Source: a bacterium (GTDB lineage: Bacteria > UBA8248). From it: a stretch of DNA of 64,000 nt. Under the pieces are notes generated by a model. The model was not told the DNA's origin. It did no database searches and worked only from the letters and a program-made list of their open reading frames with translations. Made by a program: the position numbers and the translations under genes. Location: contig CBDBEV010000001.1 of the NCBI GenBank assembly GCA_965204535.1, positions 1,760,001 to 1,824,000 on the forward strand, read 5' to 3'. Below are positions 1,443-12,231 of the stretch, one piece after another. How positions within the stretch are numbered: the first letter of the stretch is position 1; every line of letters begins with the position of its first letter.

Positions 1443-2303
1443 TCATGAGCAAATAGTGTTGATCCGTTCCTCAAGAAAGTCGGCGAGTTTCAGCGCATCC
1501 CTGTCACATGTCACCCGCAGACGATGGATCAACCGCTCATAGGGAAGAAACTGCATCTGATCCTTGAATTCAGGAAGCAGAACTTCATCCCGGAAATTCT
1601 GGGTCTGCTTTTTTACTTTCGCGGCAGTTCGCTCTGGACAGATCGCAAGAACCCCGAAGAATGCCTTCTGAGATCGTCTAGCCGCCTCCGCCGCGAAAAG
1701 GAAATTTCGCATCAGTTGATAGTATGAACCGGCAAACGGGCAGGTATCGCCATACGACTGCTCTGCAAAGATTTCCTGTCGAAAATAAGACCTCCCAAGA
1801 CACCAATAATAACGCGGTGCTCGTCTACCGTCTCGTACTTTAAGGCGACACCAAGCGTTTGTTTTTGTCTTGAGGTCAGACCCGGGACCATAGTAACCGA
1901 CGCAATTTTTCCTCCTGACTTGACTACATGAACCGAAACCTTCTTTCGCATCGCCAACGAATTTGGACTCGAAACAGATAATCTCCCTTGATGATCTACA
2001 GAAAAAATCCACGCTGGTGGGCTGCCCATGTCCTTTTTCGTTGAGGATATCCTTATCCTCATATTCCGTTAAAATTTCCCACTCTTTGGGATCAGGCGCC
2101 GGAATCTTCGGAAATGCTTCTACAAGAAGGTTAGTCAATACTTTGTTACCAACAGCAAGGTTGCGCAGCGAACCCAGCGCGCTCAGGCAGAACACCTGCG
2201 ATGATCGCTCCGAATACGCATCACTATGCCAGTTAAAGGACGGGTTGCGTTCTCGCTCTGTCAAAGCAAGGTCGTACAACGTCGGATTGTTAGGGCCAAA
2301 CAT
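1443..2303 (-). CDS. Putative PD-(D/E)XK restriction-endonuclease-like protein (PGN_0703-like)
   Basis: 286 aa; SSQVF, TSVD...FESKF and YYQLMRNFLFA motifs; visibly lower GC than neighbours. Confidence 0.6.
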   Translation of the reverse strand: MFGPNNPTLYDLALTERERNPSFNWHSDAYSERSSQVFCLSALGSLRNLAVGNKVLTNLLVEAFPKIPAPDPKEWEILTEYEDKDILNEKGHGQPTSVDFFCRSSREIICFESKFVGDAKEGFGSCSQVRRKNCVGYYGPGSDLKTKTNAWCRLKVRDGRRAPRYYWCLGRSYFRQEIFAEQSYGDTCPFAGSYYQLMRNFLFAAEAARRSQKAFFGVLAICPERTAAKVKKQTQNFRDEVLLPEFKDQMQFLPYERLIHRLRVTCDRDALKLADFLEERINTICS

Positions 2304-4315: not shown

Positions 4316-5305
4316 TTAGTTTCTGATCTTCACCCCTGCGTTCTTGTAGATGTCCTTGTTGCTCTCGTATTCCGCTCTCACCTCTTTCAGGAGCTTCTCG
4401 CCGACGACTGGTTCGGCCTTGACGCCCATCTTCCTGAGCAGACGCTTGAAGGTCTTGTCCTTCGCCACCTTGAGCAGGGCCTTCGTCAGGATGTCGATGC
4501 GATCCTTGGGCGTTCCCGCGGGCGCCATGACGATGCGTTTCGAAGACAGCAGAAGGTCCACCCCCTGCTCCCTGAAGGTCGGCACGTCCGGGAAAAGCGG
4601 GAACCGCTTGACGGCGGCGACGCCCAGAAGGCGGATTTTGCCGGACTTGTAGTTGGAGAGAACGCCGCCCGTCGCCGGGTTGGCGCCCGCCGTTTGCACG
4701 TGTCCGCCCAGCATGGCCTTCATGGCCGGGCCGCCGCCTCGGAAGGGAACGTGGGGCAACGGAGCCTTCGTGTCGTATGCGATCTTGAGCATCATGGTGT
4801 GGCTCAGGCCGTATGTTCCCGTGGAGCCGTGCTTGATCTTGCCTTTGCTCTTCTTTGCCGCGGCGATGTATTCCTTGAAATTCTTCCACGGCTGGCTCCC
4901 CAGCGTGGCCAGCATGTAGGGCAGTTCGTTGATCTGGAAAACGGGGATAAAATCCTTGAAGGGGTCGAAGCCCATGTCCTTCACGTGGGGCGACATGTAG
5001 AGGTGGCTGTTTGCGCCCATCGCGAGGGTGTAGCCGTCCGGCTTGGCGCGCTTGAGCGCTCCCATCCCTATTTTTCCGCCGCCGCCCGGCATGAGCTGGA
5101 CGTAAGCGGGCTGACCGATGTACTGGTGAAGCACGCTCGCCACGGCGCGCGAGTGGAGGTCGTGCGATCCGCCCGCGCCCAGAGGCACGATGATCTTGAT
5201 GGGTTTCGAGGGATACTTCTCCGCCGCCGCGGGGGGGACGGTGAAAGCGAGGAGCCCGAGCGACAAGACTACCGCCAGGGCGATCTTCCATGTTTTGCGC
5301 ATCAT
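4316..5305 (-). CDS. tctC: Tripartite tricarboxylate transporter substrate-binding protein
   Basis: Signal peptide, YPSKPIKIIVP..AGG, KPDGYTL, HVPFRGGG; start reassigned to ATG 5305 (RBS AAAGGAGG, overlaps tctA stop). Confidence 0.9.
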   Translation of the reverse strand: MMRKTWKIALAVVLSLGLLAFTVPPAAAEKYPSKPIKIIVPLGAGGSHDLHSRAVASVLHQYIGQPAYVQLMPGGGGKIGMGALKRAKPDGYTLAMGANSHLYMSPHVKDMGFDPFKDFIPVFQINELPYMLATLGSQPWKNFKEYIAAAKKSKGKIKHGSTGTYGLSHTMMLKIAYDTKAPLPHVPFRGGGPAMKAMLGGHVQTAGANPATGGVLSNYKSGKIRLLGVAAVKRFPLFPDVPTFREQGVDLLLSSKRIVMAPAGTPKDRIDILTKALLKVAKDKTFKRLLRKMGVKAEPVVGEKLLKEVRAEYESNKDIYKNAGVKIRN

Positions 5306-6840
5306 TTTGGTTCCTCCTTTGAATTGGATGAATCGGCTACCGTCTGCGGCCTCATGGTCTCGGCCCACGGTCGCTTCCAGATGCTCGTCACCAGCATGAG
5401 CACGGTCAAACCGATGAAACAAGCCGCGATGGGGCGAGTGATGAAGACAGAATAATCGCCGTCGGAGATGATAAGCGCCTGCTGAAGCGCTTCTTCCGCC
5501 CTGGGCGCCAGGATGAATGCGATGACGAGCGGTGCCATCGGAAACTTGAGTTTTCTAAACCCGTATCCGAACAGGCCCGCGACGAGCGCCAGCACGAGGT
5601 CTCCCAGGTTGCTGTGATAGACGTACGCCCCCACCAGACAGGAGACGATGATGCCCGGCACCAGTAACGACTGGCGGATGGTGACGATCTTGGCGAACAT
5701 GCCCGTCAAGAGCCAGCCCTGAACCAGCATGATGGGGTTCCCTATCAGCAGCAGTGTGAAGATGGCGTACATGACGGGGGCGTGTTCCTGGAAAAGGCTC
5801 GGGCCGGGCCGCAGCCCCTGGGCGATGAACGCGCCCATGAGAATCGCCGCGCTCGGGTCTCCCGGAATACCGAAAGTGAGGGTGGGGATCAGGTCCGCGC
5901 CCGCGACGGCGCTGTTGGCGGCTTCAGAGGCCGCGACGCCCTCGTAGCTGCCGTGGCCGTACTCTTCGGGTTTTTTGGAAGCCCGTTTCGCCGCCGCGTA
6001 GCTCACGAAGGTGGCGATGGCCGCTCCCGTGCCCGGAATCGCGCCGACGAAGGTGCCTATCATGGACGAGCGCACGATGGTGCGCGCCGAATGCCAGACC
6101 TCGATGATCTTGAGTTTCCTGCCGCCTCGCAGATGCAGGGTATCGGGCGGGCTCGAGAGGACGGAAGCCTTTTTTTCCGCCTGTATGAACACCTCGCTCA
6201 CGGCGAAAAGCCCGATGAGCAGGGGAACCACCCCAATCCCTTCGGCCAGTCCGTGAAGACCGAACGTGAAGCGCTCCCCGCCCGAGATGATGTCCGTGCC
6301 CACCATGCCGAGTTGGAGTCCGATGAGGGCCGACAGCACGCCCTTCACCAGGGAGGCGCCCGTCACGCTGGAGATGATGGCCAGCCCCATGAGCAGGAGC
6401 CCGAAAAACTCGGTCGGCCCGAACAGGAGCGCCACAGCGGCCAGCGGAAGCGCCGCGAGAATCAGTACGAGATCGCTGAAAGTATCGCCGATGGTCGAGG
6501 AGTAGAGCGCCATCTGGATCGCACTCCTCGCCTCTCCTTTTTGCGCGAGCGGAAACCCGTCCATACACGTCGCCGCCGCAGGCGCGGTTCCTGGCGTGTT
6601 CACCAGAATGGCGGGGATGGAGCCTCCGAAAAGGGTTCCCTTGTGAATCCCCAGCAAGAAGGGGATGCCCAGCACGGGCGGCATGAAAAAGGAGAAGGGA
6701 ACCAGAATCGCCGTCGCCATCACGCTGGTGAGCCCCGGAATGGCGCCCACCGTGATGCCTACGAAGACGCCCAGCGCAATCATGGCGATACCCTGCCACG
6801 TAAGCGCCATCGTAACTCCCTGGAGTATCTGTTCGAACAT
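5302..6840 (-). CDS. tctA: Tripartite tricarboxylate transporter large permease
   Basis: 512 aa; GAIPGL, GGSIPAILVNTPGT, EAANSA, PTLTFGIPG, PGP motifs. Confidence 0.92.
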   Translation of the reverse strand: MFEQILQGVTMALTWQGIAMIALGVFVGITVGAIPGLTSVMATAILVPFSFFMPPVLGIPFLLGIHKGTLFGGSIPAILVNTPGTAPAAATCMDGFPLAQKGEARSAIQMALYSSTIGDTFSDLVLILAALPLAAVALLFGPTEFFGLLLMGLAIISSVTGASLVKGVLSALIGLQLGMVGTDIISGGERFTFGLHGLAEGIGVVPLLIGLFAVSEVFIQAEKKASVLSSPPDTLHLRGGRKLKIIEVWHSARTIVRSSMIGTFVGAIPGTGAAIATFVSYAAAKRASKKPEEYGHGSYEGVAASEAANSAVAGADLIPTLTFGIPGDPSAAILMGAFIAQGLRPGPSLFQEHAPVMYAIFTLLLIGNPIMLVQGWLLTGMFAKIVTIRQSLLVPGIIVSCLVGAYVYHSNLGDLVLALVAGLFGYGFRKLKFPMAPLVIAFILAPRAEEALQQALIISDGDYSVFITRPIAACFIGLTVLMLVTSIWKRPWAETMRPQTVADSSNSKEEPK

Positions 6841-6847
6841 ACGCGCC

Positions 6848-7324
6848 CTAACTGAAGAGGCTGCCCTCGGGCAGCGCCAGCTTGAAGGCGAACCAGAAGA
6901 AATAGTTCACCACGATGGGAAAGAGGATCGACATCGCCGCGACGTAGCGCCAGTCGCGCGTGCCCATGGACGTAACGAGGATTGCGAGAAATACGGGCGT
7001 ACTCACCAGAAAGCCGAAATACGCCAAAGACTCGACGTAGACGTAACAAAGAACAAAAACGGCGCAGACTTGGCATAACGCCCTTTTGCCCGAAATCACC
7101 TGCCCGCCCGCTTCACTCCGCCTGAGAGCCCCGAACAGGAACATCGCACTCACCAGCCCGAACGTGACGACGGCGGAGGTGGGGAAGAAAGTGGGTAAAA
7201 AGACGGCGTTCGTTACTTCTTCGGGCGGAATGGCGTATTGAATCTGCGTGGGAATGATGTAGAAAAAGCCGATGACGCTGTAGAGTATAAAAATGACGGC
7301 TGTGTAAATATCGGCTTTCCGCAC
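6848..7324 (-). CDS. tctB: Tripartite tricarboxylate transporter small permease
   Basis: About 4 TM helices, PTFFP and C-terminal LALPEG; probable GTG start at 7324. Confidence 0.8.
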   Translation of the reverse strand: MRKADIYTAVIFILYSVIGFFYIIPTQIQYAIPPEEVTNAVFLPTFFPTSAVVTFGLVSAMFLFGALRRSEAGGQVISGKRALCQVCAVFVLCYVYVESLAYFGFLVSTPVFLAILVTSMGTRDWRYVAAMSILFPIVVNYFFWFAFKLALPEGSLFS

Positions 7325-7574
7325 GTCCGGCCCTCTTGACGGATATGGAACCCATGCTCGCCTCATACATACCCCTGACAAGGACAAGCCCGGATTCCGG
7401 GACGCTGAAACCGCCTCACATCTTTTCTGCGTATACAAAACAGGCTAGCAAGAATCGCCGCGCGTGTCATCCCGGAACGACATCCGAAGACGGCGTGAAA
7501 GATGGCGCTTATTGTGGGAAGATAAATTATTCCTCAAAAAAAGACTCGGAGCACGCATTCGAGAAGGAGTGGCC

Positions 7575-8228
7575 ATGTCCAGAGTTCCGTTGCTCGGCAG
7601 GGAGGAAGCAGAAGGCGAAATCGCGCGCACCTTCGACATCCTGAACAACTTCCAAAGCAGGCAGGTCAATTCCACCCGGGCGACGGCGCACTCCCCGTTT
7701 CTCGCGCGCATCTTCTATCCCCTCGTCCAGACACTGATGCGCGAGGGGCTCGGCACCGTGCTTTCTTCCAAGATAAAAGAAATCGCCGTCATCAAGACCA
7801 GCCAGTTGAACGGGTGTGATTACTGACTCGCGCACAACACCGCTCTCGGCCGGGTGCTGGGAATCACCGATGAACACGTCGCCGCCATCGGCTCGGATGA
7901 GTACACGGATTCGCCGCTGCTGACCCCAAGGGAAAAGGCGACCGTCCTCTGGGCCGAACACGTCACGCGCAACTCCGCCAAGTTCCGGGACGACATAGCC
8001 GAGGAAGTGCAAAAGCATTTCACGGACGCAGAGTTCGTGGAACTCACCTTCGTCATCAGCTACTTCAACATGCGAAACCGCTACCACGATTCGCTCAAGC
8101 TGCCGAACGATGAGGCGGAAATCGTCGAGGACGTGGGCCGCCTCCGGCCCGACCCGGCGAAACTCAAGGCTTATCTGCAGGAAGTTCTGGACAACTGGCC
8201 GGACGCCTTCCCCGAACCCAACGATTGA
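7575..8228 (+). CDS. AhpD/carboxymuconolactone-decarboxylase-like selenoprotein (CxxU, Sec at TGA 7824-7826)
   Basis: ORFs 7464-7826 and 7854-8228 are the same frame; read-through gives SQLNGCDY-U-LAHN, where U takes the place of the second Cys of the AhpD CxxC-x-x-H motif; RBS GAAGGAG before ATG 7575; 217 aa. Confidence 0.85.
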
Positions 8229-8266
8229 GAGCAATTATGAATCACACCGAAGAGGAGAAACGATAA

Positions 8267-8992
8267 ATGGACCGAGGAATCTGGGCGGTATGGTACGACC
8301 TTCCCGAAGAGGGAGCGGATGAATACATCTCCTGGCTTCATGAGGTCCACATCCCCGAAGCGCTTGCGCGTCCGGGCTACCTCTGGGCGGCGCACGTGAA
8401 GAACGTCGTCACGCCCGAGCGTGAGGAACGCATCCGGGGCGTCGTCCACCACACGGACGACGCGAGCGTCCCCACGGGGGTTCAGTACCTGATGCTCTAC
8501 GGCGCACTCTCGCCGAACGCTTTTCTGGACCCGAGTCCCGAGCAGATGGCGGAGAAGATGACGGCGGATGACCGGGAAATGCTCGGGCGGCGATTGAACG
8601 CGCGCTCTTGTATCTTCATGGAGCACAACCGCATCGACGGTCCCGAGTTCAAGACCCGCGCGCCGGGAATCACGCCGGGTCCGGGTATCCAGTTCGGTAC
8701 CTTCAACATCAACGCCGTCGAGAACGAGGACGAGCTCGGTTGCTGGTACGCCCAGGTGCGTATGCCGCGCCTCGTGAGCATGGAGGGATGTGTCGGCGCG
8801 CGTAATCTCGTATCGGTATCGGGCTGGGCGAAGCACGGGATTCTCTATGAGTGGGTCTCCCTGGAATCGCTTCAGCAGAATTTCACGACCGAGAAGATAC
8901 CCCGCTCTCGCCAAGCCGTGAGCACCCTCGTCCACGCGCCCAGTTCCCCGAGTCTCGGCGAGCGCATCTGGCCGCCGGCGGGGGATAGTTAA
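8267..8992 (+). CDS. Hypothetical protein with two EthD/DUF4286-like dimeric alpha-beta barrel repeats
   Basis: 241 aa; repeated W(L/Y)..VH/R.P......G motif (WLHEVHIPEALARPG, WYAQVRMPRLVSMEG); RBS GAGGAG. Confidence 0.6.
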   Translation: MDRGIWAVWYDLPEEGADEYISWLHEVHIPEALARPGYLWAAHVKNVVTPEREERIRGVVHHTDDASVPTGVQYLMLYGALSPNAFLDPSPEQMAEKMTADDREMLGRRLNARSCIFMEHNRIDGPEFKTRAPGITPGPGIQFGTFNINAVENEDELGCWYAQVRMPRLVSMEGCVGARNLVSVSGWAKHGILYEWVSLESLQQNFTTEKIPRSRQAVSTLVHAPSSPSLGERIWPPAGDS

Positions 8993-9032: not shown

Positions 9033-10418
9033 TCAATACGTGAGTTTCGAGAACCCCTCGAACAGGTGCGCGAGGAATTTTTCGGACTGGAGAACGCCCG
9101 ATACCTGCGCGTATTCGTTGGCCGCGTGTTTTCGCATGGCGTTGCACGGAAGCCCGCCGATCCAAGGCACGCCAAGCTCTTCGGTCCACAAGGCCACGGG
9201 CATCCCCGCCGGGTGCACGGGCCAGACTTCCGGGTCCGCGCCCATGTCCGCATGGGCCTTCAGGAAACACTGGATGAGAGGATGCTCCAGCGGCGTTCCG
9301 CCGCCCGCGTAATGATTGTTCACGACGAACTCGACGTCACCGTAGCCGCCCTCCGCCAGGATGTTGCGGACGTTCCCGATGCGCTCGTCGGGGTCTTCGC
9401 CCGGCTGGAAGCGCATGTTCACCACGGCCTGGGCCTCGGAGGGAATGCTGACCTTGACGGATTTGCCCTCACCGACGAAGCCCGCGTGAAGGCCTGTCAG
9501 GGTGAATTCCGCCTTGAACAGATGCGAGCGGACGGCGGCGCCGAAATCATCCTGCCGGAAACGCTCGACGCCCAGACTCTGCTTCATCCGCTCCGGGTCC
9601 ATGCGCTCTGCGAGTTTTCGGCACAATTCTTCTTCGGCTTCGCTCGGCGTCCAGCCCTCGCCGTTTTGGTAAATCTCCTCGAGCCTCGCCTGCAGATAAG
9701 CGATCGCCTCCACGATGCGCTCCGCCGGATTGCCTATCCAGTTGCAGTTGAGCGCGTGAATCTCGTTGCCCACCGGGCCGCCCCACTCCCCCGGACGGCA
9801 GAAGAGCCTGCCCATCAGGTTGCCTTTGAGCCCCAGCGGGACGATGGGCGTCCCGTCGGTCTGCCCCATCGGGCAGAGCCAGTAGGCCGCGTTCGCCTTT
9901 TGCATCTTCTCCCTGTAGCGCGGGAAGAAATCCTTGATGCCGCCGCTGCCGAGTTCGGACGCCTCGTGGACGAACATGAGGTTGAGCGGGAGCTTCTCCC
10001 CTGCGGTGCGCGCCGCGTAGACCGTGTTCATCACGCAGGCGATACCGGTTTTCATATCCTCCGCACCCCGGCCCACGATGCAGGGTCCCAAGCCTTCCAG
10101 TTCCTGAATCTCCGGCTCGAAGGGAGGGTTGATCCAGCCCGGTTCTTCCGCCGGCGTCACGTCGTAGAGGCCGTGGCAGAGCAGCGTGCGCTCGGCGCCC
10201 TCGTCGATCAGGCCGTAGACGACGGGAAACTCCGCCGTTTCCACCACCTCCGCCTCGCCGCCGACCTCGATGATCTCATCGGCCAGCATCCGCGCCATCT
10301 CGTCGTTTCCGAGGTTGAGCGCGGAGACGCTCGGCTGTCGAATGTATTTCAGGAGACGCTCGATGTGGGTGGATTCGAAATCCGCCTCGATTTGCGCGAT
10401 GACCCGTTCGACGTCCAT
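9033..10418 (-). CDS. M20-family metallo-hydrolase (dipeptidase/DapE-like) with atypical metal ligands
   Basis: 461 aa; IRQPSVSA, YDVTPA, GRGAEDMK, HAANE motifs. Confidence 0.8.
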   Translation of the reverse strand: MDVERVIAQIEADFESTHIERLLKYIRQPSVSALNLGNDEMARMLADEIIEVGGEAEVVETAEFPVVYGLIDEGAERTLLCHGLYDVTPAEEPGWINPPFEPEIQELEGLGPCIVGRGAEDMKTGIACVMNTVYAARTAGEKLPLNLMFVHEASELGSGGIKDFFPRYREKMQKANAAYWLCPMGQTDGTPIVPLGLKGNLMGRLFCRPGEWGGPVGNEIHALNCNWIGNPAERIVEAIAYLQARLEEIYQNGEGWTPSEAEEELCRKLAERMDPERMKQSLGVERFRQDDFGAAVRSHLFKAEFTLTGLHAGFVGEGKSVKVSIPSEAQAVVNMRFQPGEDPDERIGNVRNILAEGGYGDVEFVVNNHYAGGGTPLEHPLIQCFLKAHADMGADPEVWPVHPAGMPVALWTEELGVPWIGGLPCNAMRKHAANEYAQVSGVLQSEKFLAHLFEGFSKLTY

Positions 10419-10458: not shown

Positions 10459-10770
10459 TCAGGGAATCATGAGACCGAGCAGCGGACCGTGCTGCTGCGC
10501 CCCGTACACGTCGCGGTCGCCCGGTGCGCCCGAGGTCGGCCCTTTCCTCGGTATGGTGATCTTGATCGCGTTGGCCGCGTCGAAATGGACTATCTTCACA
10601 TCCTCGGTCGCCATCTCGTAGAGTTCTGAAACCACGCCCGGCGTGAGCGCCTCGCTGTCGGCCACGCGCCGATAAGTCGCCTCATCGGCGAACAACAGGT
10701 CCAGCGTGATGTGCAGGGGGCCTGCGTTCTTGCTCCGCAACACCTCGGCGAGGTCGTAGAGCCGCTCCAC
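10459..10770 (-). CDS. DUF4387 protein
   Basis: 103 aa; LRSKNAGP...DVYGAQQH signature. Confidence 0.85.
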   Translation of the reverse strand: MERLYDLAEVLRSKNAGPLHITLDLLFADEATYRRVADSEALTPGVVSELYEMATEDVKIVHFDAANAIKITIPRKGPTSGAPGDRDVYGAQQHGPLLGLMIP

Positions 10771-10772
10771 CC

Positions 10773-12137
10773 TCAGCCCACCTGCGCGAATTCGACCTCG
10801 AAGGGCGCCGCGGCATCTTCGAGCTCCACGAGGTGATAGATGTGGAACTCATACACCGGTCCGCCCTCGAAATCAGACGGCGAGAACGGGAAGGCGAGGT
10901 TCCCGGCGGTGGCTTTTCGGCCCTCGAAGTCCGAATGCAGGAACGTGCTCCGCGTAAGTGAGAGCACCGCGTTCGCCGTCGTCTGATCCCTGGCGATCGC
11001 CTCCATCACCACGCCGACCTCCCTTGGAGCGCCTGATTCATCCGCCGCCGGACGGCCCATCACGCCGTCGCGCCCGTAGAAGATGAAACGCAGTTCGTAG
11101 TCCTCGGGCGAGAGCGTACCCCGAACCATGTCCGCGACGGTGTTCTTCACGTTCGCCTCCACCTCATCGAGACTCGCGAGCAGCCTGGGGTCCGTCATAC
11201 CGGCGACGGCGATGGTGCGGTATCCCCTCAAGCGCACCCCTTCGATCTTGATGGTCGGGGTCTGCGCTTGCACGAATCGGCTGCCGCTCACCCGCACGCG
11301 GCGCTCGCCGATCTGTTTGAATTCCGAGTCTTTGAGGTCGATCACCCCCTCCGGTTCATAGAACAGGTAGGGGTCGGGCTGTTCGTACATCATGTGGGCC
11401 GCCACGGAACCCGGCGTCACTCGCATCCCCTCGTTCATCGGTTCGAGTTCGAAGTGATCTTCGCGCAAAGTGCCCAGAATGCAGTCGTTCGCCCCGATGG
11501 GGAGAGCGCACTGCGCGCCGCACTCGATGATCTTCGCCATGTGAAAGGCGAGGCCAAGGTCGAAGCCCTGCATCGCGGCGTAAGAGGTGTAGATGGCCGT
11601 GTCGCAGGAGCGTCCGGCAAGGACGACCTCCGCACCGCCCTCCAGGGCCGTCATGAAAGGTTCCAGCCCCATCTGGCCCACGATGCGCACGCTTTCGTCC
11701 ACCATCTCCTCGGTGAGTTCGGGGAGCTTCCCCAGGGTGCGCGTTCTCTTTTCCCGGACAGCGCGCTTGATGAACTCCTTGTCCATTTCAGAACGGATCA
11801 CCGCGAGTTTGAAGCGGTGCCCGTCGCGCTTCGCCAATTCATTCATCGTCTCGAGCACGCTGTCCACGTGCGGATTTCCGCCCGCCGTACCGGCGGAGCC
11901 GATGATGTAGGGAATCTTCTTCTTTCTCGCGGCGGCCAGCGAAAATCCTAAGTCTCTGCGAATCTGCTCGCGCTTGGTGAGCTGGTCGCCGCTTCCGAGG
12001 TAATAGGGACCCGCATCGGTGGAGCCGTTGTCCGCCCCCATGATGTGCGGGTCGCGGGCGAGACCGTTTTCGAGAGAGGCCTTGGGGAATCCGTAGCCGA
12101 GATTTCCGCAAACGGACAATACCCTGAGTTCATCCAT
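10773..12137 (-). CDS. Acyclic terpene utilisation AtuA-family (DUF1446-like) protein
   Basis: GNLGYG, DNGSTDAGPYYLG, GRSCDTA, KIIECGA, TAGNLAFPFSP; usual partner of DUF4387; start at ATG 12137. Confidence 0.8.
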   Translation of the reverse strand: MDELRVLSVCGNLGYGFPKASLENGLARDPHIMGADNGSTDAGPYYLGSGDQLTKREQIRRDLGFSLAAARKKKIPYIIGSAGTAGGNPHVDSVLETMNELAKRDGHRFKLAVIRSEMDKEFIKRAVREKRTRTLGKLPELTEEMVDESVRIVGQMGLEPFMTALEGGAEVVLAGRSCDTAIYTSYAAMQGFDLGLAFHMAKIIECGAQCALPIGANDCILGTLREDHFELEPMNEGMRVTPGSVAAHMMYEQPDPYLFYEPEGVIDLKDSEFKQIGERRVRVSGSRFVQAQTPTIKIEGVRLRGYRTIAVAGMTDPRLLASLDEVEANVKNTVADMVRGTLSPEDYELRFIFYGRDGVMGRPAADESGAPREVGVVMEAIARDQTTANAVLSLTRSTFLHSDFEGRKATAGNLAFPFSPSDFEGGPVYEFHIYHLVELEDAAAPFEVEFAQVG

Positions 12138-12231
12138 GCGAGGCTCCTGAGGCATTTTGACTGGAAGATACTCGAAACCTACACGATCGCCCCGGCCCGG
12201 TTACCGCCAAGGAATCCAGGTTAAGCCACGC

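What the first reader, a model, noticed from the sequence alone, without database searches (positions are those of the whole stretch)
7575..8228. Hidden AhpD/CMD-like selenoprotein with CxxU
Seen: a single in-frame TGA falls exactly where the second Cys of NGCxxC-x-x-H belongs (C81-D-Y-U84), and the frame continues for 133 codons with typical codon usage. A possible SECIS-like stem (CUC-GGCC-GGG, G-led loop about 22 nt after UGA) follows but is weak. Established: Sec-containing AhpD-like proteins exist. Standard gene callers would split this one in two.
Basis: partly seen in the sequence, partly recalled or inferred. Interest (0 to 1): 0.7.

Follow-up and report, generated by a model that had tools for sequence, protein, structure and literature searches.

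The report
Selenocysteine AhpD-fold enzyme, one of many
This is one intact gene whose internal TGA very likely codes for selenocysteine in a redox enzyme of a family known since 2005; the extra points are that the genome carries about a dozen such genes and that their active-site histidine is placed as in the debrominase Bmp8, which hints at, but does not show, a job other than peroxide removal.

Summary
Confirmed. Window 7575-8228 (+) is a 217-codon frame with one TGA at codon 84 (C81-D-Y-U84). The genome has selA, selB, selC and a TGA-containing selD. TGA holds this column in 76 of 80 related loci (TGC in 4), and both sides are under purifying selection. The SECIS is weak in this gene alone, but across the family its loop-closing pair covaries (CTT..A / CTC..G; 77 of 77 TGA genes, 0 of 4 Cys genes). 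AhpD-like CxxU selenoproteins are known since 2005, the likely lineage (UBA8248) is already listed as selenoprotein-rich, and this scan found such genes before on other DNA (3 windows). New here: 13 TGA-containing AhpD/CMD genes in this genome, 9 with CxxUxxHN; His sits at +3, not at the +4 proton-relay position of solved AhpD-like peroxidases, a spacing seen only in Bmp8 among the solved sequences viewed; neighbours are transporters, catabolic genes and a recurring EthD-like partner. Most likely a selenenylsulfide-cycling reductase for a small organic substrate; dehalogenase is a 13% lead.

The parts
7561..7566 (+). Shine-Dalgarno-like AAGGAG upstream of the ATG
   Evidence: seen in sequence; function inferred
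7575..8228 (+). 217-codon AhpD-fold selenoprotein gene (CxxUxxHN subfamily)
   Evidence: dN/dS 0.084 upstream and 0.122 downstream of the TGA
7815..7817 (+). Cys81, first residue of the CxxU motif; likely resolving thiol
   Evidence: C in 32 of 32 full-length homologues; role inferred
7824..7826 (+). in-frame TGA, codon 84, predicted selenocysteine
   Evidence: TGA in 76 of 80 loci, TGC in 4; 18 of 18 orthologue rows
7833..7838 (+). His87-Asn88: His at +3 of the Sec, Asn at the column where solved AhpD-like peroxidases have the relay His
   Evidence: invariant in 32 of 32 and 14 of 14; alignments
7842..7857 (+). SECIS-like hairpin, stem 7842-7847/7852-7857, loop GGCC 7848-7851; weak copy of a family-wide GG(U/C)C hairpin
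8267..8992 (+). 241-aa DUF4286/EthD-like gene, 38 nt downstream with its own GAGGAG; recurring partner of this family, function unknown
   Evidence: (E 3.7e-4, under cut-off)
4316..7438 (-). divergent tctB-tctA-tctC tripartite tricarboxylate transporter genes; context, not part of the gene

Best explanation
The gene has an in-frame TGA at the second Cys position of an AhpD-type CxxC motif, which is very likely read as selenocysteine, giving a 217-aa redox enzyme that likely reduces a small organic substrate of an uptake/catabolic pathway. Shown: the frame, the conserved TGA, the Sec machinery, the family hairpin, the predicted fold. Inferred steps: SelB binds the GGCC hairpin 22 nt downstream and delivers Sec-tRNA; the Sec84 selenolate at the start of helix 82-94 attacks an electrophilic bond (O-O, S-S, S-O or similar) of the substrate; Cys81 resolves the adduct to a selenenylsulfide; a cellular thiol system re-reduces it; His87 rather than the usual +4 His would supply the acid/base. 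Odds: Sec read-through 0.97; this substrate class 0.55.
For: selA, selB over cut-off, tRNA-Sec(UCA) 75.9 bits, selD with its own TGA; selA in 49 of 51 genomes of the phylum. TGA in 17 of 17 full-length orthologues at 81% identity or more plus one partial; 76 of 80 GTDB loci across several phyla. dN/dS 0.08/0.12 on the two sides; synonymous change halved in codons 85-99 (pS 0.21 against 0.41-0.45; 18 sequences, L066 left out for a frameshift). Loop-closing pair Watson-Crick in 77 of 77 TGA genes: all 38 Leu-Gly-Gln cases use CTT-GGT, against 13 of 187 closing pairs and 18 of 187 GGT in other Leu-Gly-Gln of this genome; 0 of 4 Cys genes. On 12 chosen sequences 89% of stem cells pair, 0 of 500 shuffles as high, slid controls 30-56%. 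Model pLDDT 90.8, AhpD-like fold, Z 19.1, rmsd 3.0 over 180 residues to 6k40. For a catabolic job: relay His out of register; several paralogues kept across the genus (10-16 matches in 21 of 22 same-genus genomes, 7 in the 79%-complete one); 13 window neighbours and 29 hand-picked neighbours of 9 related loci are transporters, amidohydrolases, MmgE/PrpD, monooxygenases, dehydrogenases, none an AhpC; EthD-like partner beside 3 of the genome's Sec paralogues.
Against: No protein-level evidence of selenium. This gene's own hairpin is not more stable than shuffles and 4 of 18 orthologue rows break a second stem pair (CGT codon). Related genomes are not independent and the Cys control is 4 closely related genes. 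The genome is full of transport and catabolic genes, so such neighbours are expected; neighbours were hand-picked, not sampled. One paralogue lies 3-4 kb from genes that look by eye like a superoxide dismutase and a peroxiredoxin. G001 and G007 keep the partner gene (85%) but showed no orthologue above 54%, so the pair is not obligate. No substrate is identified.
Confidence: 0.55

Rival explanations
1. A selenocysteine version of a plain AhpD-type antioxidant: it reduces hydroperoxides or re-reduces a peroxiredoxin, and the many copies reflect oxidative stress in the host.
For: Closest solved sequences and folds are PA0269/AhpD-like peroxidase-related proteins; Glu69, Cys81, Tyr83 match PA0269 Glu36, Cys48, Tyr50; PA0269 reduces H2O2 weakly (PMC3141380, passages). 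A selenolate may not need the His relay (inference).
Against: His55 of PA0269, called invariant and essential in that paper, aligns with Asn88 here, also in Cys homologues; no AhpC among the 42 neighbours scanned.
Confidence: 0.28
2. A selenium-using reductive dehalogenase: like Bmp8 (and like deiodinases) it strips Br or I from halogenated aromatics or pyrroles, which would explain its expansion in a bacterium of sponges.
For: Bmp8 reads GCMYCKSHF, the same CxxCxxH spacing, with Lys at Lys68; the 8 other solved sequences whose alignments were printed (PA0269, 2gmy, 2oyo, 6k40, 2pfx, 2prr, 3c1l, 2ouw) have His at +4. With the paralogue profile Bmp8 is the best long-form hit (E 7.1e-16). Close relatives of the DNA occur in sponge and coral metagenomes. 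Bmp8 is a dehalogenase (PDB titles; PMC7918430, passages).
Against: Bmp8 is only 15-19% identical, ranks 12th by Z (16.7 against 19.1) and last with the N-terminal profile; it lacks Glu69 and Asn88. The +3 His is common and changes often: 56 of 74 CxxC-bearing representatives have it, 6 changes on a quick tree. Sec sits at the second Cys, whereas the Bmp8 mutant used to trap ligand is C82A, the first Cys if the chain numbering is offset by 3 (inferred). The family also occurs in record titles not linked to sponges. No halogen-specific neighbour was seen.
Confidence: 0.13
3. The TGA is a true stop: the gene is a pseudogene, or makes two separate polypeptides (83 aa and 124 aa).
For: A GTG at 7854 could start a 124-aa frame; the hairpin is weak; two orthologues carry frameshifts (G004, L066).
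Against: Codons 85-93 between the TGA and that GTG are conserved as protein, with invariant His-Asn; the GTG is GCG in 2 of 18 rows; the same TGA is kept in paralogues down to about 30% identity and in other phyla.
Confidence: 0.02
4. TGA is read as Trp (or is a sequencing error).
For: 2 of 32 database homologues show W at this column.
Against: TGA is the commonest stop in the genome (925 of 1855 long frames) and ends this gene; the only UCA tRNA is tRNA-Sec; both W proteins nest among TGA genes on the tree, as expected if a gene caller read TGA as W; contigs of 4 studies agree.
Confidence: 0.01

Closest known systems
AhpD-like selenoproteins (CxxU; COG2128 / TIGR01926) of the Sargasso Sea and GOS surveys (PMC1088965, PMC2398784 'AhpD-like 1'; listed in PMC13188914 and BSepDB PMC13326102)
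   Same: CxxU motif at the AhpD active site, Cys homologues, UGA-proximal SECIS, marine bacteria; same superfamily hits.
   Different: Below the TIGR01926 cut-off (60.7 against 81.8 bits) and far below the three NCBIfam (seleno)protein models; CxxUxxHN spacing and a 35-residue C-terminal extension; nine copies in one genome. Whether these exact sequences are already BSepDB entries was not determined; a genome in its top-ten table holds an 85% orthologue (L064).
Pseudomonas aeruginosa PA0269 / Mycobacterium tuberculosis AhpD (peroxidase-type AhpD)
   Same: Two-helix hairpin with Glu, Cys, Tyr and the second chalcogen in register; all-helical fold (Z 17.2, rmsd 2.0 over 142 to 2o4d; Z 12.6 to 1gu9).
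   Different: Sec for the second Cys; Asn at the relay His column, His one residue earlier; no ahpC beside it.
Bmp8 tetrabromopyrrole debrominase (PDB 6OHI, 6OHJ)
   Same: AhpD fold (Z 16.7, rmsd 3.0 over 173), CxxCxxH spacing, Lys at 68, Asn-Arg at 168-169.
   Different: 15-19% identity; no Glu69 or Asn88; Cys not Sec; works in a biosynthetic cluster; not shown to be the nearest relative.
gamma-Carboxymuconolactone decarboxylase (PF02627)
   Same: Pfam CMD hit over cut-off, residues 60-108.
   Different: gamma-CMD proteins lack the CxxC motif (PMC3141380, passage); this protein has CxxU and is about twice as long.

Membership tests
AhpD-like selenoproteins (CxxU) | in-frame UGA at the second Cys of an AhpD CxxC motif | tested here: met
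   C81-D-Y-U84
AhpD-like selenoproteins (CxxU) | homologues with Cys at the UGA column | tested here: met
   30 of 32 full-length proteins; 4 TGC loci
AhpD-like selenoproteins (CxxU) | AhpD-family homology | tested here: met
   TIGR00778 28.7 bits over 27.8; PF02627 31.5 over 23; fold
AhpD-like selenoproteins (CxxU) | TIGR01926 subfamily score | tested here: inconclusive
   E 1.5e-16 but 60.7 bits, under the 81.8 cut-off
AhpD-like selenoproteins (CxxU) | SECIS hairpin with apical G just after the UGA | tested here: met
   family-wide covariation; this copy alone is weak
AhpD-like selenoproteins (CxxU) | selA, selB, selC, selD in the genome | tested here: met
AhpD-like selenoproteins (CxxU) | selenium in the protein | not testable with these tools
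   needs 75Se or MS
NCBIfam (seleno)protein equivalogs NF053654, NF041238, NF041537 | score over the curated cut-off | tested here: not met
   64/310, 26.2/175, 12.5/510 bits
Peroxidase-type AhpD (Mtb AhpD, PA0269) | Glu, Cys, Tyr/His and second Cys of the relay in register | tested here: met
   E69, C81, Y83, U84
Peroxidase-type AhpD (Mtb AhpD, PA0269) | relay His four residues after the second Cys | tested here: not met
   Asn88 at that column, His87 at +3, in 32 of 32 homologues
Peroxidase-type AhpD (Mtb AhpD, PA0269) | peroxide or AhpC reductase activity | not testable with these tools
   assay needed
Bmp8-type debrominase | CxxCxxH spacing | tested here: met
Bmp8-type debrominase | closer to Bmp8 than to other AhpD-like proteins | tested here: inconclusive
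   5th of 14 with A4, 7th with A1, last of 13 with A5, 12th by Z
Bmp8-type debrominase | Asn170, recalled as a key residue (paper not readable here) | tested here: inconclusive
   with a 3-residue offset it aligns near His171, variable in this family; Asn168 matches a neighbouring Bmp8 Asn that PA0269 also has
Bmp8-type debrominase | halide release from halopyrroles | not testable with these tools
   assay needed
gamma-CMD decarboxylase | short CMD domain without CxxC | tested here: not met
   CxxU present, 217 aa

The most novel reading that the evidence does not exclude
The CxxUxxHN subfamily is a bacterial, AhpD-fold counterpart of the selenium deiodinases: a set of Sec-dependent reductive dehalogenases, amplified to nine copies in a sponge-dwelling bacterium to strip bromine or iodine from host metabolites before catabolism with the neighbouring transporters and EthD-like partner.
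Probability: 0.13. Interest if true: 0.8.

Novelty: new member of a known kind. Interest (0 to 1): 0.3.

Why it matters
As a gene, it is an annotation fix: databases hold only the 124-aa tail, with the active site cut away. As a family observation it is a modest lead: AhpD-like proteins are among the commonest marine bacterial selenoproteins (299 in GOS, PMC2398784) and I saw no tested function for them in the passages read. A genome with nine in-register paralogues, Cys homologues that are easy to express, and a His spacing shared with a known debrominase makes 'what do AhpD-like selenoproteins act on' directly testable.

Tried and rejected
Folding the hairpin alone gave no signal; only comparison did. 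A whole-genome count of selenoproteins by codon score plus hairpin filter was too noisy to use: 176 TGA candidates against 111 TAA and 135 TAG controls, 33 against 15 and 13 at the stricter score; no selenoproteome size is claimed. The partner protein folded without an alignment was unusable (pLDDT 33) and its profile found nothing in the PDB. No sigma-70 promoter or plus-strand terminator was found. RNA-library contigs cover the TGA and the 8126-8326 junction but contigs cannot show transcription or one transcript. Trees are quick and midpoint-rooted: Cys forms sit in several groups among TGA forms (4 changes), suggestive of Sec-to-Cys reversions but untested. The primary Bmp8 papers could not be read, so its catalytic roles are recalled. 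Searches for Bmp8 with AhpD/debrominase terms gave 0, 0, 0, 6 and 3 papers (one search returned only unrelated BMP8B papers); none of those listed links it to selenoproteins, but the library lacks most subscription journals. The BSepDB supplement held as text had no 'UBA8248' (file possibly cut, and the other store gave no answer), so whether these genes are catalogued is open. No complex prediction was run, so binding to the partner is untested.

Full report
Observation. Window 7575-8228 (+) translates to 217 codons with a single internal TGA at 7824-7826, in the context TSQLNGCDY*LAHNTALG. A ribosome-binding-like AAGGAG precedes the ATG. Ordinary ORF calling splits it, and the protein collection holds 124-aa tails for the close orthologues. 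Contigs of four runs from four studies cover the codon without a change while neighbouring third positions vary; a near-identical run that may be the source also matches throughout.

Sec machinery. The genome (4.56 Mb, 2 contigs) has selA (E 7e-153), selB (389 bits, cut-off 242), tRNA-Sec with UCA anticodon (75.9 bits, cut-off 47) and selD with an in-frame TGA of its own. selA is found in 49 of 51 genomes of the phylum, the two misses being 79% and 67% complete. TGA is otherwise the commonest stop (925 of 1855 long frames), so this is not a Trp code.

Conservation. All 17 full-length orthologues at 81% identity or more keep the TGA. Of 80 GTDB loci kept (best 80 of 202), 76 have TGA and 4 TGC at this column; titles include Nitrospinota-labelled genomes, Tectomicrobia, Rhodospirillales, SAR324, Burkholderiales and Acidimicrobiia. 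Among 32 full-length database proteins the column is Cys in 30 and Trp in 2. Over 18 orthologous sequences (L066 dropped for a frameshift) dN/dS is 0.084 before and 0.122 after the TGA, and synonymous divergence falls to 0.21 in codons 85-99 from 0.41-0.45 elsewhere. These genomes are kin, so the figures describe rather than test.

SECIS. The hairpin of this gene (GCUCUC-GGCC-GGGUGC, one U.U mismatch) is not more stable than shuffles. The family shows it is real: the loop lies at the same offset, GGUC in 55, GGCC in 18, GGAA in 3 of 76. The loop-closing pair joins the silent third base of a Leu codon to the second base of the codon after Gly: every one of 38 Leu-Gly-Gln genes uses CTT-GGT (U-A closure) and every Leu/Phe-Gly-Arg gene uses a C-ending codon (C-G closure), 77 of 77 TGA genes in all, against 13 of 187 Leu-Gly-Gln and 250 of 658 Leu-Gly-Arg elsewhere in this genome, and 0 of 4 Cys genes. 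On 12 hand-chosen sequences 89% of stem cells pair, with 5 double changes at the closing pair; 0 of 500 shuffles reach that, slid controls give 30-56%. The orthologue group of this gene has one of the weaker stems, which might mean lower read-through (inference).

Protein. Pfam CMD and TIGR00778 score over their cut-offs; TIGR01926 and three NCBIfam (seleno)protein models do not. The model with Cys at 84 is confident (pLDDT 90.8) and matches AhpD-like structures (Z 19.1 to 6k40, 17.2 to PA0269, 16.7 to Bmp8, 12.6 to Mtb AhpD); residues 187-217 were barely covered by those matches. PA0269 uses Glu36, Cys48, Tyr50, Cys51, His55 as its relay, and His55 is called invariant (PMC3141380, passages). 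Here Glu69, Cys81, Tyr83 and Sec84 are in register but His55 aligns with Asn88, and His87 sits one residue earlier, in 32 of 32 homologues. Of nine solved sequences whose alignments were printed (counting the PA0269 entries once), eight have the +4 His and only the debrominase Bmp8 has +3. Against reading much into this: among 147 distant representatives, 74 have a CxxC, of which 45 have His at +3 only, 11 at both, 16 at +4 only; the label changes at least 6 times on a quick tree; Bmp8 is not consistently the nearest solved relative; and Sec lies at the second Cys while the ligand-bound Bmp8 mutant is C82A, the first Cys by an inferred numbering offset.

Expansion. The protein finds 13 loci in its own genome, 11 with one TGA at this column; a CMD family search adds two more with TGA, 13 in all, nine of them CxxUxxHN with a GG(U/C)C hairpin. 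Same-genus genomes have 10-16 matches (21 of 22; 7 in a 79%-complete one), including single-contig assemblies, so this is not contamination; 148 of the 150 listed matches contain a TGA and the other two are fragments past the site. BSepDB already lists three UBA8248 genomes among its ten most selenoprotein-rich (54, 50, 48 genes; PMC13326102, section 11); one of them holds an 85% orthologue (L064), from which I infer that the window belongs to this lineage. Related DNA is found mainly in sponge and coral metagenomes.

Context. The gene is divergent from tctBAC and followed after 38 nt by a 241-aa DUF4286/EthD-like gene. That partner follows it in 18 of 18 orthologous loci (in L066 about 3.4 kb away); paralogues of the partner lie directly upstream of two other Sec paralogues in this genome (3 of its 5 copies), and within 5 kb in three Rhodospirillales loci; TctA homologues at 67-70% recur beside family members in five further loci. 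Two genomes keep the partner without a close orthologue. Neighbours scanned in other lineages are transport and catabolic genes, no AhpC (29 picked by hand). This favours, weakly, a step on a small organic substrate over a general antioxidant role.

Mechanism. Shown: intact frame, conserved TGA, machinery, covarying hairpin, predicted fold, altered His register. Inferred from established selenoenzyme and AhpD chemistry (own knowledge; Mtb AhpD sulfenic acid to disulfide cycle as summarised in PMC4674687, passages): Sec84 attacks, Cys81 resolves, a thiol system recycles. Substrate odds: small organic electrophile in catabolism 0.55, peroxide/peroxiredoxin 0.28, organohalide 0.13; no Sec at all 0.03.

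Known or new. AhpD-like CxxU selenoproteins were described in 2005 (27 sequences, PMC1088965, passages), counted in GOS (299, PMC2398784, passages) and are in current lists (PMC13188914, passages). Three earlier notes of this scan reached the same reading on other genomes; none mentioned Bmp8 by word search. Verdict: real, a new member of a known kind, interest 0.3, with the His spacing, the expansion and the partner gene as testable leads. Papers seen: passages only for PMC2398784, PMC13188914, PMC3141380, PMC1088965, PMC4674687, PMC7918430, PMC10849742 (no use); passages, section 11 and one supplement search for PMC13326102; Bmp8 primary papers not seen (recalled).

Noticed in passing
window 8267-8992 (+); G000 C2:941144-941875, C2:695452-696189, C2:2432138-2432866, C1:1486728-1487438: Conserved 241-aa DUF4286/EthD-like family with no PDB match; 5 copies here, up to 17 in G055, found in 39 of 41 same-family genomes and not found with this query in 9 more distant ones; repeatedly adjacent to Sec-AhpD genes.
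   Followed up: partly
proteins P0003-P0007, P0027, P0064, P0244-P0255 and others: About 30 proteins of 290-370 aa are two-domain forms: they start after the active-site column (as if cut at a TGA) and carry a second AhpD domain with a degenerate motif. Likely Sec-domain plus dead-domain fusions; DNA not checked.
   Followed up: partly
G000 C2:1074896-1076175: A TGA-containing AhpD-like gene (CNYU) directly followed by a paralogue without the Cys motif, behind an aminotransferase-like gene: a split version of the active/dead pair above.
   Followed up: no
G000 C2:1221246-1222043, C2:656825-657097, C2:218298-218894: Three further CMD/AhpD-type genes with in-frame TGA and other spacings (CDYUIDSH, CQPUVDRR, CYGUTINH).
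   Followed up: partly
G000 C1:726423-727082, C1:669176-669859, C1:1309654-1310283, C2:987248-987745, C2:1607564-1608337, C2:2199731-2200642, C2:706718-707395, C2:533236-533595: Other plausible selenoprotein frames in the noisy scan (CYVU, EYHU, CVHU, HAGUG, xUxLCxRS, QGYU, NIUTAC motifs); unverified.
   Followed up: no
L070, L071, L077: Sister group of the orthologues, labelled Nitrospinaceae/Nitrospinota, with a GGAA loop and an offset stem: a possible SECIS variant.
   Followed up: no
G004:C3:1727717-1728366; L066: Two orthologues carry a frameshift downstream of the TGA; assembly error or decay not resolved.
   Followed up: no
P0069, P0106: Database proteins with Trp at the Sec column, nested among TGA genes: probably TGA read as Trp by a gene caller.
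   Followed up: partly
window 1443-2303 (-): REase-ARP family nuclease gene (PF22558, E 7e-18) inserted next to the SnoaL/PCC/MBL/Tct block.
   Followed up: no
window 10459-12155 (-), 9033-10418 (-): AtuA-like plus DUF4387 pair and an M20 peptidase, syntenic with the gene in most same-genus loci.
   Followed up: no
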